Source of the DNA: a phage
Sequence record: PQ478073.1
Length of the DNA: 64,000 nucleotides
Strand: one strand, 5' to 3'
Below the pieces are notes generated by a model. The model ran no database searches. It worked only from the letters and a program-made list of their open reading frames with translations, and was not told where the DNA came from. Made by a program: the position numbers and the translations under genes. Within the stretch, counting starts at the first letter, position 1, and every line of letters begins with the position of its first letter. Below are positions 16,683 through 62,350 of the stretch, in pieces.

Positions 16683-17324
16683 ATGACTAAGCAAGAAATA
16701 TTCAAAACTTTAATTGACATTTTGCGTCCATCAAAAACTCGTTGTGCGATGGAGTTTGATATTCCTTATGCTGAACGCGTAATCTTTCCACAAGTTAAAG
16801 CTGCTGGACTTACTTTGCTTGGAATGGGGATGTACTCTGTAGTAGTTGAACATAAAAACTATCCTGGGCGTGCATTTAAAGTAACCACTTCACGCTGGGA
16901 TGGTTTTCGTGCTTATGCAAAGTACTGCATTGAAAACGCAGGAACCAAGTTTCTTCCAGTGATCTACAGTGCCAACGAACAAGGAAACTTTGGATGGTAT
17001 GAGATGGACAAGTACTATCCTATAATTAAACAAAAAAATAATTATGATGACTTTGTTAGTACTAAAATTGGAGATTTGTATTCGTATGCACATGCTGGTC
17101 AGTACGCAACTTCAGTGAATGATATGCGTGGAAATTCTGAAGAGATTGCTATTGCAACGGTCGCTGCTAACATCATGAAAGAGTTTCACGGGCGTTTTGT
17201 ACCAGACATTCATTCAAGTAATGTGATGATGGATAAAGATGGGAATGTATTCATTACTGATCCTCTTTCGTGTGATGTGCGTAGAGAAATACCAATTACT
17301 GAAGAAGATCCAGTTTTTTATTGA
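16683..17324 (+). CDS. protein-kinase-like protein (213 aa)
   Basis: GAGGA RBS; catalytic-loop-like DIHSSNVMMDKDGNVFITD. Confidence 0.45.
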   Translation: MTKQEIFKTLIDILRPSKTRCAMEFDIPYAERVIFPQVKAAGLTLLGMGMYSVVVEHKNYPGRAFKVTTSRWDGFRAYAKYCIENAGTKFLPVIYSANEQGNFGWYEMDKYYPIIKQKNNYDDFVSTKIGDLYSYAHAGQYATSVNDMRGNSEEIAIATVAANIMKEFHGRFVPDIHSSNVMMDKDGNVFITDPLSCDVRREIPITEEDPVFY

Positions 17325-17385
17325 CAGAACTGATGTTCTGATGTATTCTTAATAAACCATAAAAATTGCGGTAAAGGATAAAATC

Positions 17386-17667
17386 ATGCGTTCATTTGAA
17401 AACTTAATAGGTAAGCATCTTTTATCTGAAATTGATGCAGACGTTAAAGAATTATCCAAATCAAAAAGTTACATTCATTTGGATGAACTGTTTATTAAGT
17501 ACGGTGAGATTGGTTTTAAGTCATTATTTGTTTTTACTATGAAAGTACATAGTTTAAAGTACTTCGATTTGAGTGCTAAAGATGGTGAACCGAATCTATA
17601 TTACATGTATTACCTTAAGAACAAAGATGAAGCTAATACATTACTCTCTGAATATATATTGGGGTAA
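17386..17667 (+). CDS. hypothetical protein (93 aa)
   Basis: AAAGGA RBS. Confidence 0.5.
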   Translation: MRSFENLIGKHLLSEIDADVKELSKSKSYIHLDELFIKYGEIGFKSLFVFTMKVHSLKYFDLSAKDGEPNLYYMYYLKNKDEANTLLSEYILG

Positions 17668-17669
17668 AA

Positions 17670-18008
17670 ATGGAACAATATTTTGAATTAATAAACAAAG
17701 TATCATTTTATGTAGTATCTTTGGTTTGGGTGTATTATATGTTTTGCTACATTATTGCATTCTTCCGATACACTACTTTATATGAACGTATCTACTATGA
17801 TGCCCCAATTTCATTCTTGATGTTTTGTGCATGTACGTGGGGAATATTAGAAGTACTGATATGTGGGTATAGTACTGATGAATTAAATCTGGTATCGGTC
17901 TTGACTGGGTTTTCATTTGTTGTTATGATAGCTGCCGTTCCAGTATGGTTGTTCTTTGGACTAGTTCATCGCATTGATATATGGCGTTCTAATATCCCTG
18001 AAAAGTAA
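17670..18008 (+). CDS. small multi-TM membrane protein, family M (112 aa)
   Basis: Hydrophobic; C-terminus RSNIPEK matches family tail. Confidence 0.55.
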   Translation: MEQYFELINKVSFYVVSLVWVYYMFCYIIAFFRYTTLYERIYYDAPISFLMFCACTWGILEVLICGYSTDELNLVSVLTGFSFVVMIAAVPVWLFFGLVHRIDIWRSNIPEK

Positions 18009-18017
18009 GGATTGGTA

Positions 18018-18359
18018 ATGATTTATTACACTAACATGTTTGCCTATGCTGTTGCTTGCATTTACATTGTTTACTTCTTATTCGGTGGAGTACTGTGCTT
18101 CTTTAAGTACAAAACGTTGTTCAACCGAATGTACCCAAATCATCCAATTGTAGTTGTACTTTTGATTCTTTCAGTTTCTCAAATAATCGTTGAAACTACA
18201 ATGGGTATCAGTAGTGTACATTATAGTTTTGGCACTATAGTAATTATTACTATGCTTATTGCATACATTTTAGTACTTGGATATGGTATCTTTGGTAATA
18301 TTGGTATGAAAATGTATCATCGAATTAAAACATTACGTGATAATCTACCGGAGCGTTGA
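18018..18359 (+). CDS. small multi-TM membrane protein, family M
   Basis: AAGGA RBS; C-terminus RDNLPER. Confidence 0.55.
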   Translation: MIYYTNMFAYAVACIYIVYFLFGGVLCFFKYKTLFNRMYPNHPIVVVLLILSVSQIIVETTMGISSVHYSFGTIVIITMLIAYILVLGYGIFGNIGMKMYHRIKTLRDNLPER

Positions 18360-18360
18360 T

Positions 18361-18705
18361 ATGTATAATTTGAACCTAATCTCATATATTATAACAACAC
18401 TGTTTACATTCTATGCCTTTGTTGGTATAATCCTACTGTACTTTAAATTTTATAAAGTGTTTAACCGTTTCTATCCTTCAATGGAGAATGAGTTTTTCTT
18501 TGTGTTGTACGTAGGTTACACATTAATGGCTACATGTTTCACTGTAGCCGATGGCGTCATCGGCATTAAAACTGATTCCCCAAATGGTAGTACGCTGGTT
18601 GCATTTATTCTTACTGGATTCCTTGCAACTTATATTGCCTTCATTACAACATGGTCAGTGGTTGAATTTCTCTTGCGACTACGAAAGAATATGCCGAATC
18701 GATAG
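18361..18705 (+). CDS. small multi-TM membrane protein, family M
   Basis: ATG 1 nt after upstream stop; C-terminus RKNMPNR. Confidence 0.55.
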   Translation: MYNLNLISYIITTLFTFYAFVGIILLYFKFYKVFNRFYPSMENEFFFVLYVGYTLMATCFTVADGVIGIKTDSPNGSTLVAFILTGFLATYIAFITTWSVVEFLLRLRKNMPNR

Positions 18706-18714
18706 GAGACATAT

Positions 18715-18969
18715 ATGTTTGCGTTGCGTAATAAAAACACTAAAGAATTATTATGTATTGATACCGTATGGGATTGTGCGGGATCAACTACAGTTCTTGA
18801 AGAAGGAACTGGATATTGCGTGTTTGTTGTTCATGATAGGAATGAACTCGAATTATTACTTGCTGAGTTCAATGCTGGTGGTAATCCTAACAGTACTGAA
18901 TACCCTGAGATTATCAATCCAGCACCACCAGGCTCTTATGAAATTCTACAACTGTGGGAGTTGAAGTAA
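18715..18969 (+). CDS. hypothetical protein (84 aa)
   Basis: AGGAG RBS. Confidence 0.5.
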   Translation: MFALRNKNTKELLCIDTVWDCAGSTTVLEEGTGYCVFVVHDRNELELLLAEFNAGGNPNSTEYPEIINPAPPGSYEILQLWELK

Positions 18970-60864: not shown

Positions 60865-60890
60865 CGGCGGGAACTATTCCCGCCTTTTTT
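60865..60890 (+). terminator. terminator GGCGGGAA-ctat-TCCCGCC + T6
   Basis: Stem-loop plus TTTTTT. Confidence 0.65.
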
Positions 60891-60904
60891 ATAGGATAAA
60901 CAAA

Positions 60905-61159
60905 ATGATTAAGGTTCAACTATCAAACGATAATGTATTACGGGTACACTATAAAGCCCCACAGAGAATCATCTCAAAGGCCGTACAGCTTGCTAATGAG
61001 TTTATTAATGGTAGTCTATTGCCTAGGAAGTTAAGCAACGGGAAACTACGTGTAATCGACGTAGACACTAACAATAGAATAGTGATCGAGAGTACTGGAA
61101 AAATTAATCTATATGAACACCAACAATACAATAAAAAAATAAAACTAATATCACGTTGA
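60905..61159 (+). CDS. hypothetical protein (84 aa)
   Basis: ORF track; weak RBS. Confidence 0.5.
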   Translation: MIKVQLSNDNVLRVHYKAPQRIISKAVQLANEFINGSLLPRKLSNGKLRVIDVDTNNRIVIESTGKINLYEHQQYNKKIKLISR

Positions 61160-61184
61160 CAGTACTCAAATGTTTTAGTATTAT
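61156..61184 (+). promoter_or_regulatory. promoter TTGACA-N17-TATTAT
   Basis: TTGACAGTACTCAAATGTTTTAG; near-identical copy at 61435. Confidence 0.6.
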
Positions 61185-61215
61185 GTATCTATACCAACAC
61201 AGAGAGAGAAACAAA

Positions 61216-61434
61216 ATGAAATTATCTAAAATCGAAAAGAAAACTATTGATGAAGCAGTGAAGCACGGTTATACCTTTCGTAATGATTCACACTTCACCA
61301 GTTTTCAACAGGGAAACCGTACCATCAAAAAACTCATTGATAAAGGTTTACTCACTAAGGTTGATAACGGGAACGGTGTAGAATATCAACCGACAGAAGA
61401 CGCATTATCACTAAAGAAATATTCTATTATCTAA
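61216..61434 (+). CDS. hypothetical protein (72 aa)
   Basis: ATG 61216; track ORF start lies in promoter. Confidence 0.55.
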   Translation: MKLSKIEKKTIDEAVKHGYTFRNDSHFTSFQQGNRTIKKLIDKGLLTKVDNGNGVEYQPTEDALSLKKYSII

Positions 61435-61463
61435 TTGACAGTACTCAAATGTTTTAGTACTAT
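61435..61463 (+). promoter_or_regulatory. promoter TTGACA-N17-TACTAT
   Basis: Duplicate of 61156 promoter. Confidence 0.6.
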
Positions 61464-61491
61464 GAATGCATACCAACACGGGGAAAACAAA

Positions 61492-61734
61492 ATGATTACT
61501 TTAGAAAAACGTATCAAAGAGACTACAACGCTGGTGGAACTGTTAACCGTTCTTAAATGCCGGGTAACTCCATTCAGTACACCGGACTTTATCAACATGG
61601 TGGACGTTAACGGTCGCTATCGTATTGCGGTCGAACAAGGTACGGCAAAAGTATTCAGTACTAAAAATACGCGTGAAGTATTCCACGCAGTTCAAGTAAA
61701 AAAAGTAGTTGCCATTGAAAGTAAAGTACTGTAA
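61492..61734 (+). CDS. hypothetical protein (80 aa)
   Basis: ATG 61492. Confidence 0.55.
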   Translation: MITLEKRIKETTTLVELLTVLKCRVTPFSTPDFINMVDVNGRYRIAVEQGTAKVFSTKNTREVFHAVQVKKVVAIESKVL

Positions 61735-61765
61735 TATAGTTTCATTAACTCAAGGAGTCAACACA

Positions 61766-62350
61766 ATGCGTAACTATACTAAATTCATCCGTTCACTTCA
61801 TGCAATGGAAACCAACAAAGAGATCCTTTCAGCTTGTCGGTTAGCTGGACTGGAGATCGTCGGTGCGGGTTCTTCCCGTATTGTATTCGCTTTAAATGAT
61901 CGGTTAGTGATTAAGGTCGCTAATTGTGATGCGGGTGTAGAACAAAATGAAACTGAATGTAAGGTATGGAATTTTTTAGATTATGACCGTCCGCACCTTA
62001 AACAGTACTTTGCAAAGGTGCATATGCATTTATGCGATCCTGATAATCTGTTTATTGTTATGGATCGTTTGAGTACTGCAAGCAAAGGCAGTGTAAAGCA
62101 TGTAAACGCGTGCAATGAGTTAAAGTACAATATTAAACGTAATACGGTAGAACGCCAACACCATTTCGCTGATGCTCTCAATCATGTTGATGATACATTA
62201 TCAACACTAACGATAAGAGATATCAGAAAACAGAATATCGGCCAGGATCGCAACGGCTTGATTAAAGTACTTGATTACGGTTTAACCCGCAATATCTGGA
62301 ATCAGTACTATAAAAAACGTGATGTTAACGCGATAACTATAACACGATAA
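61766..62350 (+). CDS. protein-kinase-like protein (194 aa)
   Basis: AAGGAG RBS; VIK lysine motif; DIRKQN catalytic loop; DYG. Confidence 0.5.
   Translation: MRNYTKFIRSLHAMETNKEILSACRLAGLEIVGAGSSRIVFALNDRLVIKVANCDAGVEQNETECKVWNFLDYDRPHLKQYFAKVHMHLCDPDNLFIVMDRLSTASKGSVKHVNACNELKYNIKRNTVERQHHFADALNHVDDTLSTLTIRDIRKQNIGQDRNGLIKVLDYGLTRNIWNQYYKKRDVNAITITR

What the first reader, a model, noticed from the sequence alone, without database searches (positions are those of the whole stretch)
16683..62350. Three small eukaryotic-type protein-kinase-like paralogues
Three proteins carry a VAIK-like lysine (AIK or VIK), a catalytic-loop-like D-x-K-x-x-N (DAKPEN, DIRKQN) and a DFG-like DYG or ITD motif. 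The shortest, 20468..20839, is only 123 aa. Multiple compact kinase-like genes in one phage are uncommon and would suggest phosphorylation-based host takeover.
Basis: partly seen in the sequence, partly recalled or inferred. Interest (0 to 1): 0.55.

Follow-up and report, generated by a model that had tools for sequence, protein, structure and literature searches.

The report
Three truncated kinase-like phage proteins
This giant E. coli phage really does encode three small protein-kinase-like proteins. Two were already recognised in close relatives, and the third (123 aa) belongs to a large unnamed phage family that keeps the kinase active-site residues but ends right after the DFG-type motif, making it shorter than the small solved kinases it was compared with.

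Summary
The window comes from an Asteriusvirus, a 121Q/PBECO4/G17-like E. coli jumbo phage.

The three proteins fall into two lineages.
- P1 (16683-17324, 213 aa) is a T7 gp0.7-type kinase without the shut-off domain (hhalign 98.5%, E 3e-15). This was already published for phage G17 and for Sharanji.
- P3 (61766-62350, 194 aa) and P2 (20468-20839, 123 aa) are distant paralogues in PHROG 4301 (hhalign 95%). P3 is annotated as a putative kinase in several relatives.
- P2 is called 'hypothetical' in every record and source name inspected. The only kinase label found is on a 267-aa relative in phage Kc263.

P2 is the interesting one.
- About 1,200 cluster representatives exist, nearly all 110-135 aa.
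- The beta3 Lys, alphaC Glu and DFG Asp are invariant. The catalytic loop covaries between D-x-K-x-x-N and E-x-K-x-x-S.
- Most members stop 2-3 residues after the DFG Asp.
- Members occur in jumbo, T4-like, podo-, sipho- and lambdoid (pro)phages.

All three proteins lack the substrate-binding half of the C-lobe. Early expression and a role in host takeover or anti-defence are inferred, not shown. Whether P2 catalyses anything on its own is open.

The parts
16683..17324 (+). P1: T7 gp0.7 (T7K)-type protein kinase, kinase domain only, 213 aa. Equivalent to 121Q gp205 and Sharanji WNN14432.1.
   Evidence: phrog_15752 at E 5e-92 and phrog_2828 (Ser/Thr kinase, the T7K PHROG) at E 8e-17. hhalign of the family against T7 gp0.7 gives 98.5%, E 2.9e-15, over T7K residues 61-224. 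tblastn hits 774 phage records, mostly T7-like kinases. G47, G49, K66, D175, H177, N180, D193 and P194 are invariant. The protein ends 20 aa after D193, so there is no shut-off domain.
16625..16654 (+). Sigma70-like promoter candidate (TTGACT-18-TATGAT with an extended TG) just upstream of P1. It lies over the alternative start at 16650.
   Evidence: Consensus scan, 10 of 12 matches. This is a consensus match only, and the region as a whole is not enriched for such sites.
17325..17340 (+). Terminator-like hairpin directly after the P1 stop codon.
   Evidence: Consensus match only.
20468..20839 (+). P2: 123-aa kinase core (beta1-3, alphaC, beta4-5, one long helix, catalytic loop, beta7-8, DYG) that stops 3 residues after the DFG-type Asp. 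Equivalent to 121Q gp215 and Sharanji WNN14422.1.
20841..21110 (+). Tightly coupled downstream 89-aa gene (phrog_8563, unknown function). It is not a conserved partner of P2.
   Evidence: Its ATG lies 2 nt after the P2 stop, and a GGAG sits inside the last P2 codons. The downstream genes at distant P2-family loci are not homologous to it. PHROG assignment.
19351..19378 (+). Perfect sigma70 consensus promoter (TTGACA-16-TATAAT) at the head of the likely operon 19426..21110 that contains P2.
   Evidence: 12 of 12 matches. The operon assignment is inferred from gene spacing.
61766..62350 (+). P3: 194-aa kinase-like protein, the longer paralogue of P2. It has about 30 aa of N-terminal helices and 24 aa after D170. 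Equivalent to 121Q gp308 and Sharanji WNN14351.1.
   Evidence: phrog_4301 at E 5e-42. Pfam Pkinase and PK_Tyr_Ser-Thr at E 2-3e-3, below the gathering cut-off. The family profile hits MAP2K4/7 at E 1e-4. hhalign to the P2 family gives 95%. Annotated as a kinase in phages Turkey5, Turkey3, Munch, Muenster and K64-1. It lies inside the 21.5-kb direct terminal repeat of phage vB_Ec-M-J.
62362..62397 (+). Hairpin overlapping a sigma70-like promoter directly after P3. This kind of unit recurs in this region.
   Evidence: In 59.5-63 kb there are 23 promoter-like sites against 12.5 +/- 3.3 in shuffles, and four of them are perfect 12 of 12 matches.

Best explanation
The phage encodes three proteins with the protein-kinase-like fold, drawn from two lineages. 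All three are cut down to the ATP-binding N-lobe plus the catalytic loop and the metal-binding DFG-type motif.

P1 is a T7 gp0.7-type Ser/Thr/Tyr kinase without the C-terminal DNA-binding shut-off domain.

P3 (194 aa) and P2 (123 aa) are long and ultra-short members of one uncharacterised phage family, PHROG 4301. That family has its own signature: G-x-[ST]-R, [AV]-[ILFV]-K, N-x-x-E, [DE]-x-K-x-x-[NS], D-Y-G.

Proposed mechanism (inferred). The genes are transcribed early from host-type promoters, and P3 is transcribed from the terminal repeat. Each protein binds Mg-ATP through the conserved Lys/Glu pair and the Asn/Asp metal ligands. Each transfers phosphate to acceptors with little built-in specificity, because the activation segment and alphaF-alphaI are missing. 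P1 probably phosphorylates host proteins broadly, as T7 kinase does, and this may include defence proteins. P2 has essentially no acceptor-binding surface of its own. It most likely needs self-association or a host or phage partner to be active, or it acts on a non-protein acceptor.

What is shown: the genes, the conserved residues, the homologies, the fold of P2, the size and spread of the P2 family, and the truncation point. What is inferred: early expression, catalysis, and the targets.
For: Source. The window is 98-99% identical to Asteriusvirus genomes.

P1.
- hhalign to T7 gp0.7 gives 98.5%, E 2.9e-15, with the GxG, VIK, DxHxxN and DP[V/L] motifs in register.
- T7K G76, whose G76K mutation abolishes phosphorylation (PMC13645617), corresponds to the invariant G49 of P1.
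- The same paper lists the phage G17 jumbophage homologue and notes that it has lost the shut-off domain.

P2 and P3.
- Both hit PHROG 4301.
- hhalign of the two families gives 95%, E 2.6e-8, over 117 columns from the G-loop to DYG.
- An HMM built from 149 P2-family representatives finds P3 in the window at E 1e-6.
- The P3 profile aligns to MAP2K4/7 from the G-loop to DFG.

Selection on the P2 active site, from 149 representatives.
- K21 in 147 of 147 and E41 in 148 of 148 aligned sequences; D120 in 143 of 143; G7 and R10 in 145 of 145.
- The catalytic loop is D-K-N in 71 and E-K-S in 41.
- 104 of 142 end 2-3 residues after the DFG Asp.

Early expression. Sigma70 consensus promoters lie upstream of each unit, and they are in excess in the P3 region. 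P3 lies inside the direct terminal repeat of a relative.
Against: - No activity data exist for any of the three proteins or for PHROG 4301.
- Pfam Pkinase is below threshold for P3 and absent for P2. The P2 profile does not reach significance against PDB sequences (best E 0.13).
- The P3 AlphaFold2 model is poor (pLDDT 49.5), so its fold rests on sequence profiles alone.
- Constructs of the minimal Salmonella kinase SteC that lack much of the C-lobe (200-377, 210-375) are catalytically inactive. Activity needs residues up to 429, including alphaF (PMC13395416). This argues against P2 working alone as a protein kinase.
- OspG, another minimal kinase, needs a host partner to become active (same paper).
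- In the P3 family the +2 Lys of the catalytic loop is not conserved.
- P1 lacks the DNA-binding domain that T7K uses to reach its preferred targets. The Nature paper states that the function and promiscuity of the jumbophage homologues remain to be shown.
- The promoter evidence is consensus matching only, and the P1/P2 region shows no excess of such sites.
Confidence: 0.6

Rival explanations
1. P2, and possibly P3, are non-catalytic nucleotide-binding proteins (pseudokinases). They would bind ATP or another nucleotide, or dock onto a host kinase or defence protein, and act as a sponge, decoy or allosteric modulator rather than transferring phosphate.
For: P2 has no activation segment, P+1 loop or alphaF-alphaI. 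SteC constructs lacking much of the C-lobe are inactive (PMC13395416). Most of the conserved residues (Lys, Glu, Asn, DFG Asp) would also be kept for nucleotide and metal binding alone. Small phage proteins that sequester signalling nucleotides are a known strategy (my own knowledge, not tested here).
Against: The catalytic-base position is a carboxylate in 140 of the 142 representatives that have a residue there, and it covaries with the metal-ligand position (D..N against E..S). The +2 Lys, which contacts the gamma-phosphate in Ser/Thr kinases, is kept in 123 of 149. That pattern is more typical of a working phosphotransfer site than of pseudokinases, which usually lose one or more of these residues (established knowledge).
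Confidence: 0.25
2. P2 and P3 are phosphotransferases for non-protein acceptors such as a nucleotide, RNA or DNA, a sugar or a lipid. They would resemble aminoglycoside kinases or the small archaeal RNA kinase ArkI more than host-protein kinases.
Against: The catalytic-loop D-x-K-x-x-N and the DYG motif are closest in sequence to Ser/Thr protein kinases (TTK alignment; MAP2K alignment for P3). The small-molecule kinases get their acceptor site from a large helical C-lobe, which is also missing here. No conserved metabolic neighbour exists across 24 loci.
Confidence: 0.12
3. P2 is a decaying fragment of a longer kinase gene, or one half of a gene split with the downstream ORF.
For: It is only 123 aa and stops right after DYG. 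The next ORF starts 2 nt after its stop.
Against: Homologues down to 30-45% identity keep the same length. 104 of 142 representatives end 2-3 residues after the DFG Asp. The downstream genes at distant loci are unrelated to each other, and the one in this window belongs to a separate PHROG. The rare longer forms carry extensions with no Pfam match, not a kinase C-lobe.
Confidence: 0.02
4. The motifs are chance matches and the proteins are not kinase-like at all.
For: Pairwise BLASTP among the three is insignificant. Pfam gives no hit above threshold.
Against: Family-level conservation of every motif. Profile and fold matches to kinases.
Confidence: 0.01

Closest known systems
Phage T7 gp0.7 protein kinase (T7K; PHROG 2828), a hyperpromiscuous Ser/Thr/Tyr kinase that disarms bacterial defences (PMC13645617)
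   Same: P1 aligns over the whole T7K kinase core (98.5%). It has the GxG loop, the beta3 Lys, DxHxxN and the DP[V/L] motif that replaces DFG. It appears to be an early gene with a host-type promoter. P2 and P3 share with T7K the early stop soon after the DFG-type motif.
   Different: P1 has no shut-off/DNA-binding domain: it is 213 aa against 359 aa for T7K. The motif is DPL rather than DPV. The Ser after the motif is not conserved in the jumbophage family, where it is S, G or A. P2 and P3 show no significant sequence link to T7K, and they keep a classical DYG.
Minimal bacterial effector kinases: Shigella OspG / E. coli NleH, HopBF1, Salmonella SteC
   Different: The solved chains are about 170-176 residues and still have sequence after the DFG-type motif. 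SteC needs its alphaF region for activity. P2 has 3 residues after the Asp. No sequence-family relationship to these effectors was detected or tested.
Hanks-type (eukaryotic-like) Ser/Thr kinases, Pfam Pkinase PF00069 / PF07714; best matches TTK/Mps1 and MAP2K4/7
   Same: The order and identity of the motifs match: G-loop, beta3 Lys, alphaC Glu, D-x-K-x-x-N and D-[FY]-G. The N-lobe and catalytic-loop fold also match.
   Different: Scores are below the Pfam gathering threshold. Subdomains VIII-XI (activation segment, APE, alphaF-alphaI) are missing. The family has its own G-x-[ST]-R loop with an invariant Arg, and an invariant Asn three residues before the alphaC Glu.
Small archaeal RNA kinase ArkI/Ark1 and the Rio/Bud32 atypical kinases
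   Different: They are at least 170-270 residues and have C-lobe helices. The substrates are different (RNA, or ribosome and KEOPS contexts). There is no sequence relationship.

Membership tests
T7 gp0.7 (T7K)-type kinase (PHROG 2828/15752) - P1 | Significant sequence homology to the T7K kinase domain | tested here: met
   hhalign 98.5%, E 2.9e-15, 163 aligned columns. phrog_2828 at E 8e-17 and phrog_15752 at E 5e-92. tblastn hits Autographiviridae kinases at E down to 2e-13.
T7 gp0.7 (T7K)-type kinase - P1 | Active-site motifs: GxG loop (T7K G76), beta3 Lys, DxHxxN and the DP[V] motif in place of DFG | tested here: met
   G47, G49, K66, D175, H177, N180, D193 and P194 are invariant in 18 homologues and in register with T7K. 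The third motif position is Leu, not Val, consistent with the paper's note on jumbophage homologues.
T7 gp0.7 (T7K)-type kinase - P1 | C-terminal shut-off / DNA-binding domain | tested here: not met
   P1 ends 20 residues after D193. The alignment to T7K stops at residue 224 of 359. P1 is therefore a kinase-domain-only variant.
T7 gp0.7 (T7K)-type kinase - P1 | Ser/Thr/Tyr phosphotransferase activity on host proteins | not testable with these tools
   This needs biochemistry or phosphoproteomics. The literature says it is still to be shown for the jumbophage homologues.
PHROG 4301 (uncharacterised phage family) - P2 and P3 | Significant match to the family profile | tested here: met
   P2 at E 7e-44 and P3 at E 5e-42. 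Mutual hhalign 95%, E 2.6e-8.
Hanks-type protein kinase domain (Pfam PF00069 / PF07714) - P2, P3 | Score at or above the Pfam gathering threshold | tested here: not met
   P3 scores 17.4 bits against a cut-off of 31.7, and 18.4 against 23.1. P2 has no hit. Homologues carry no precomputed Pfam domain.
Hanks-type protein kinase domain - P2, P3 | Catalytic residues: beta3 Lys, alphaC Glu, catalytic-loop Asp and Asn, DFG Asp | tested here: met
   P2 has K21, E41, D103, N108 and D120. P3 has K50, E64, D152, N157 and D170. All are invariant or nearly so.
Hanks-type protein kinase domain - P2, P3 | Complete bilobal domain with activation segment, APE motif and alphaF-alphaI (subdomains VIII-XI) | tested here: not met
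   P2 stops 3 residues after D120 and P3 stops 24 residues after D170. The P2 model has no structural element after beta8.
Protein-kinase-like fold (superfamily level) - P2 | Structural similarity of the N-lobe plus the catalytic and Mg-binding loops to solved kinases | tested here: met
Protein-kinase-like fold (superfamily level) - P3 | Structural similarity to solved kinases | tested here: inconclusive
   The AlphaFold2 model has pLDDT 49.5 and pTM 0.40, too poor to search with. Support comes only from sequence profiles.
Minimal effector kinases (OspG/NleH, HopBF1) | Sequence-family membership | not tested

The most novel reading that the evidence does not exclude
The P2 family would be the smallest natural, catalytically competent protein-kinase-like enzyme: about 120 aa, ending at the DFG-type motif. 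The kinase N-lobe plus the catalytic and Mg loops would work as a stand-alone or partner-completed phosphotransferase. Many unrelated phages, and prophage moron sites, would use it as a portable host-modifying or anti-defence module.
Probability: 0.3. Interest if true: 0.8.

Novelty: new variant of a known kind. Interest (0 to 1): 0.5.

Why it matters
T7 kinase has just been shown to disarm many bacterial defences by mass phosphorylation (PMC13645617). Jumbo phages of this group carry a T7K-type kinase without its targeting domain, plus two members of a second, unstudied kinase-like family.

The 123-aa member tests a basic assumption about the kinase fold, namely that the alphaF-anchored C-lobe is needed for a stable and active enzyme. 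Here the active-site residues are under clear selection in more than a thousand sequence clusters that lack that lobe entirely.

If P2 is active, it defines a new minimal kinase scaffold and a widespread phage accessory function. If it is inactive, it is a large natural family of ATP-site-preserving half-kinases whose role as a decoy, sponge or partner-dependent enzyme would still be new.

Tractable models exist. Phage Sharanji infects E. coli K-12 MG1655. BASEL phage Bas45 (PaulHMueller, a Tequatrovirus) carries a P2-family gene. So do lambdoid Salmonella prophages.

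Tried and rejected
- **Pairwise BLASTP** among the three proteins showed nothing significant. Profiles were needed.
- **Pfam, NCBIfam and PADLOC** gave no hit above threshold for any of the three. The only weak matches were for P3: Pkinase, PknB and PD-T4-6.
- **Small P2 profile** (15 sequences) against PDB sequences gave no hit. The 113-sequence profile reached only E 0.13 to TTK.
- **P2 family against the P1 family or T7K** by hhalign gave no link (2% and 0.05%).
- **P3 family against the P1 family or T7K**: the motifs align in register, but the probability is only 5-6%, so this was not counted as evidence.
- **AlphaFold2 of P3** gave low confidence, so no fold search was run on it.
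- **Split-gene idea** (P2 plus the downstream ORF) was rejected.
- **Conserved gene neighbourhood**: no recurrent neighbour across 24 loci except a denV-like gene in two lineages.
- **Longer family members** (185-267 aa) were checked for a hidden C-lobe or a fused domain. No Pfam domain was found. One 1,073-aa hit is a tandem-repeat artefact.
- **A fourth copy** in the window was not found.
- **Literature** on a roughly 120-aa phage kinase-like family: nothing was found in the held library. That library is incomplete, so prior description elsewhere cannot be excluded.
- **The search for related loci with the broad alignment** failed because no stretch was conserved enough. The narrow alignment worked.

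Full report
**Source and genes.** The window is 98-99% identical to Asteriusvirus genomes, the roughly 350-kb E. coli jumbo phages 121Q, PBECO4, G17, SP27 and Sharanji.
- P1 is 16683-17324 (213 aa), equivalent to 121Q gp205.
- P2 is 20468-20839 (123 aa), equivalent to 121Q gp215.
- P3 is 61766-62350 (194 aa), equivalent to 121Q gp308.
- The start codons are supported by the lengths and N-termini of homologues.

**The observation.**
- P1 has A-F-K, not AIK or VIK.
- The DIRKQN of P3 has its Lys at +3, not +2.

The motifs are not chance.
- In each family alignment the G-loop glycines, the beta3 Lys, the catalytic-loop Asp and Asn and the DFG-type Asp are invariant or nearly so.
- PHROG profile matches are E 5e-92, 7e-44 and 5e-42.
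- A regex for the catalytic loop plus DxG hits only P2 and P3 among 353 ORFs.
- Family HMMs find no further copy in the window.

**Are they paralogues?** Pairwise BLASTP is uninformative. Profiles resolve two lineages.

P1 belongs with phage T7 gp0.7.
- It hits phrog_15752 and phrog_2828.
- hhalign of the P1 family against T7 gp0.7 gives 98.5%, E 2.9e-15, over T7K residues 61-224. GxG, V-I-K, D-x-H-x-x-N and I-T-D-P are in register.
- tblastn hits 774 phage records, mostly T7-like kinases of about 40-kb genomes.
- P1 stops 20 residues after D193, so it has no shut-off/DNA-binding domain.

P2 and P3 both hit PHROG 4301, annotated 'unknown function'.
- With a 113-sequence P2-family alignment, hhalign to the P3 family gives 95%, E 2.6e-8, over 117 columns from the G-loop to DYG.
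- They share a signature not seen in P1: an invariant Arg in the G-loop (G-x-[ST]-R) and an Asn three residues before the alphaC Glu.
- Neither links significantly to the P1 family or to T7K.

**What was already known.**
- 121Q and many relatives annotate P1 as a protein kinase.
- Bartolec et al. (Nature 2026, PMC13645617) list jumbophage T7K homologues, including that of phage G17. [quoted passage not shown]
- The Sharanji paper (PMC11895373) names WNN14432.1 as a T7 kinase homologue and WNN14351.1 as 'another protein kinase' of unknown function. By position and length these are the P1 and P3 homologues.
- P3 homologues are annotated as kinases in phages Turkey5, Turkey3, Munch, Muenster and K64-1.
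- The P2 homologue (WNN14422.1) is not mentioned. Every record row inspected for a short P2 homologue, and every source name read for six clusters, says 'hypothetical protein'. The one exception is a 267-aa relative in Kosakonia phage Kc263, labelled PknA-like.

**P2 in detail.** AlphaFold2 with 15 homologues gives pLDDT 90 and pTM 0.79. The order of elements is beta1-beta3, a long alphaC, beta4-beta5, one long helix, a short helix, the catalytic loop, beta7-beta8, and then the end of the protein.
- Foldseek against PDB returns TTK/Mps1 structures at the top (E 5e-4, probability 1.0), with one bacterial effector kinase, Lpg2603, lower in the list.
- Against predicted viral structures, the best matches are small uncharacterised phage proteins of 117-210 aa. 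Eukaryotic-virus Ser/Thr kinases follow.

A profile search of 1.84 billion cluster representatives found 1,212 proteins at E<=1e-3 and 644 at E<=1e-10. Nearly all of the best 150 are 110-135 aa, with the match running to their C-terminus. Among 149 representatives:
- K21, E41 and D120 are present in every aligned sequence, and so are G7 and R10;
- the catalytic loop is D-x-K-x-x-N in 71 and E-x-K-x-x-S in 41, a correlated pair of variants;
- 104 of 142 end 2-3 residues after the DFG Asp.

So the truncation is the ancestral, selected state of the family. It is not decay and it is not a split gene.
- The ORF that follows P2 by 2 nt belongs to a different PHROG.
- It is not conserved at distant loci.
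- The few longer members carry extensions with no Pfam match.

**Distribution and context of the P2 family.** Members were found in:
- Asteriusvirus and other jumbo phages (Aeromonas phage PS1 has three copies);
- Tequatrovirus Bas45/PaulHMueller, between ipI and the tRNA cluster;
- a roughly 68-kb SU10-portal podophage lineage;
- Pseudomonas Nipunavirus phages such as NP1;
- Rhizobium and Ralstonia phages;
- lambdoid Salmonella prophages, at the classic moron site between the Rz-type lysis gene and terminase Nu1;
- E. coli plasmids that carry phage-type genes such as phd/doc

. No neighbour is conserved, apart from a denV-like glycosylase next to it in two lineages. It behaves as a mobile accessory gene.

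**P3.**
- Its family profile aligns to MAP2K4/7 from the G-loop to DFG at E 1e-4.
- Pfam Pkinase and PK_Tyr_Ser-Thr are below threshold, at E 2-3e-3.
- Its AlphaFold2 model is unreliable (pLDDT 49.5).
- It has about 30 N-terminal residues predicted as two helices and only 24 residues after D170.
- In phage vB_Ec-M-J the homologue lies inside the annotated 21.5-kb direct terminal repeat. The repeat boundary maps to about 47.2 kb of the window.
- The surrounding 59.5-63 kb carries an excess of sigma70 consensus promoters, 23 against 12.5 +/- 3.3 in shuffles, four of them perfect. Several are fused to hairpins.

**Expression (inferred).**
- P1 has a promoter-like site at 16625-16654 and a hairpin right after its stop codon.
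- P2 is the fourth gene behind a perfect consensus promoter at 19351-19378.
- These are consensus matches only, and the P1/P2 region shows no overall excess. Together with the terminal-repeat location of P3 they suggest early transcription by host RNA polymerase, as for T7 gene 0.7.

**Mechanism.** All three proteins keep the residues that bind Mg-ATP and catalyse transfer. All three lack the activation segment and alphaF-alphaI, which in canonical kinases bind the protein substrate and anchor the hydrophobic spines (established knowledge).

For P1 the inference of a broad-specificity protein kinase is reasonable. T7K itself is hyperpromiscuous, and T7K G76, whose G76K mutation abolishes phosphorylation, corresponds to the invariant G49 of P1. 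Without the DNA-binding domain, however, its targeting must differ from that of T7K.

For P2 the active-site conservation and the D..N / E..S covariation argue for catalysis. The precedents point the other way for stand-alone activity.
- SteC constructs lacking much of the C-lobe are inactive, and activity needs the alphaF region.
- OspG needs a host partner (PMC13395416).

I therefore favour a partner- or oligomer-completed phosphotransferase for P2. The main rival is a non-catalytic ATP-site protein (0.25). A non-protein acceptor is a smaller possibility (0.12).

**Verdict.** The new element is P2. It is a member of a large, unnamed family of phage half-kinases of about 120 aa, well below the smallest solved kinase chains it matched (about 170 residues). 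I class this as a new variant of a known kind, with moderate interest that would rise sharply if activity were shown.

Noticed in passing
window 28484-41790, minus strand: A tandem array of about 11 ORFs of 300-400 aa. The four that were tested all match phrog_4219, 'regulator of chromosome condensation' (RCC1-like), at E 1e-60 to 1e-117.
   Followed up: partly
window 41894-46702, plus strand: A run of roughly two dozen consecutive 60-80-aa ORFs (for example phrog_11711). They lie in a stretch with negative GC skew and strongly positive AT skew, even though they are on the + strand.
   Followed up: no
window 46703-48013: A gap of about 1.3 kb with no ORF of 60 aa or more, where the GC skew changes sign. 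It coincides with the inner boundary of the 21.5-kb direct terminal repeat annotated in phage vB_Ec-M-J, which maps to about 47.2 kb of the window. Window 47.2-64 kb therefore corresponds to terminal-repeat DNA in relatives.
   Followed up: partly
window 59500-63000: An excess of sigma70 consensus promoters on the + strand (23 against 12.5 +/- 3.3 in shuffles, four of them perfect 12 of 12). Several are fused to G+C-rich hairpins, forming repeated promoter / small gene / terminator units. This stretch matches 4-8 places per related genome.
   Followed up: partly
window 1-64000: ARAGORN finds no tRNA gene anywhere in the window.
   Followed up: yes
window 21178-21693; locus L044 3321-3812 (Pseudomonas phage NP1): A denV-type pyrimidine-dimer glycosylase/endonuclease lies one or two genes downstream of the P2-family gene in two unrelated phage lineages, Asteriusvirus and Nipunavirus. 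This could be coincidence or a small mobile module.
   Followed up: partly
loci L047 and L048, 6001-6372 (Salmonella enterica prophages): A 123-aa P2-family gene sits at the lambdoid moron site, between the Rz-type lysis gene and terminase Nu1. This suggests expression from the prophage and a possible benefit to the host.
   Followed up: partly
locus L049 4001-4381 (E. coli plasmid pZ1323HEC0010-2): RefSeq annotation calls only the C-terminal 77 aa (4148-4381) of a 126-aa P2-family gene. This explains the many 77-aa 'hypothetical proteins' in that cluster. The variant occurs in only 3 of 5,426 complete E. coli genomes.
   Followed up: partly
P1 homologues: All P1 homologues carry a precomputed Pfam hit to PF27024.1, an accession absent from the local Pfam copy, in which P1 has no hit. 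A recent Pfam family therefore probably covers this jumbophage T7K-like group. Its name could not be looked up.
   Followed up: no
locus L043 3001-3381 (Escherichia phage PaulHMueller, BASEL Bas45): A Tequatrovirus of the BASEL collection carries a 126-aa P2-family gene (bas45_0262) between ipI and the tRNA cluster. The kinase survey of the BASEL collection in PMC13645617 studied only the T7K homologues and P1 Doc.
   Followed up: partly
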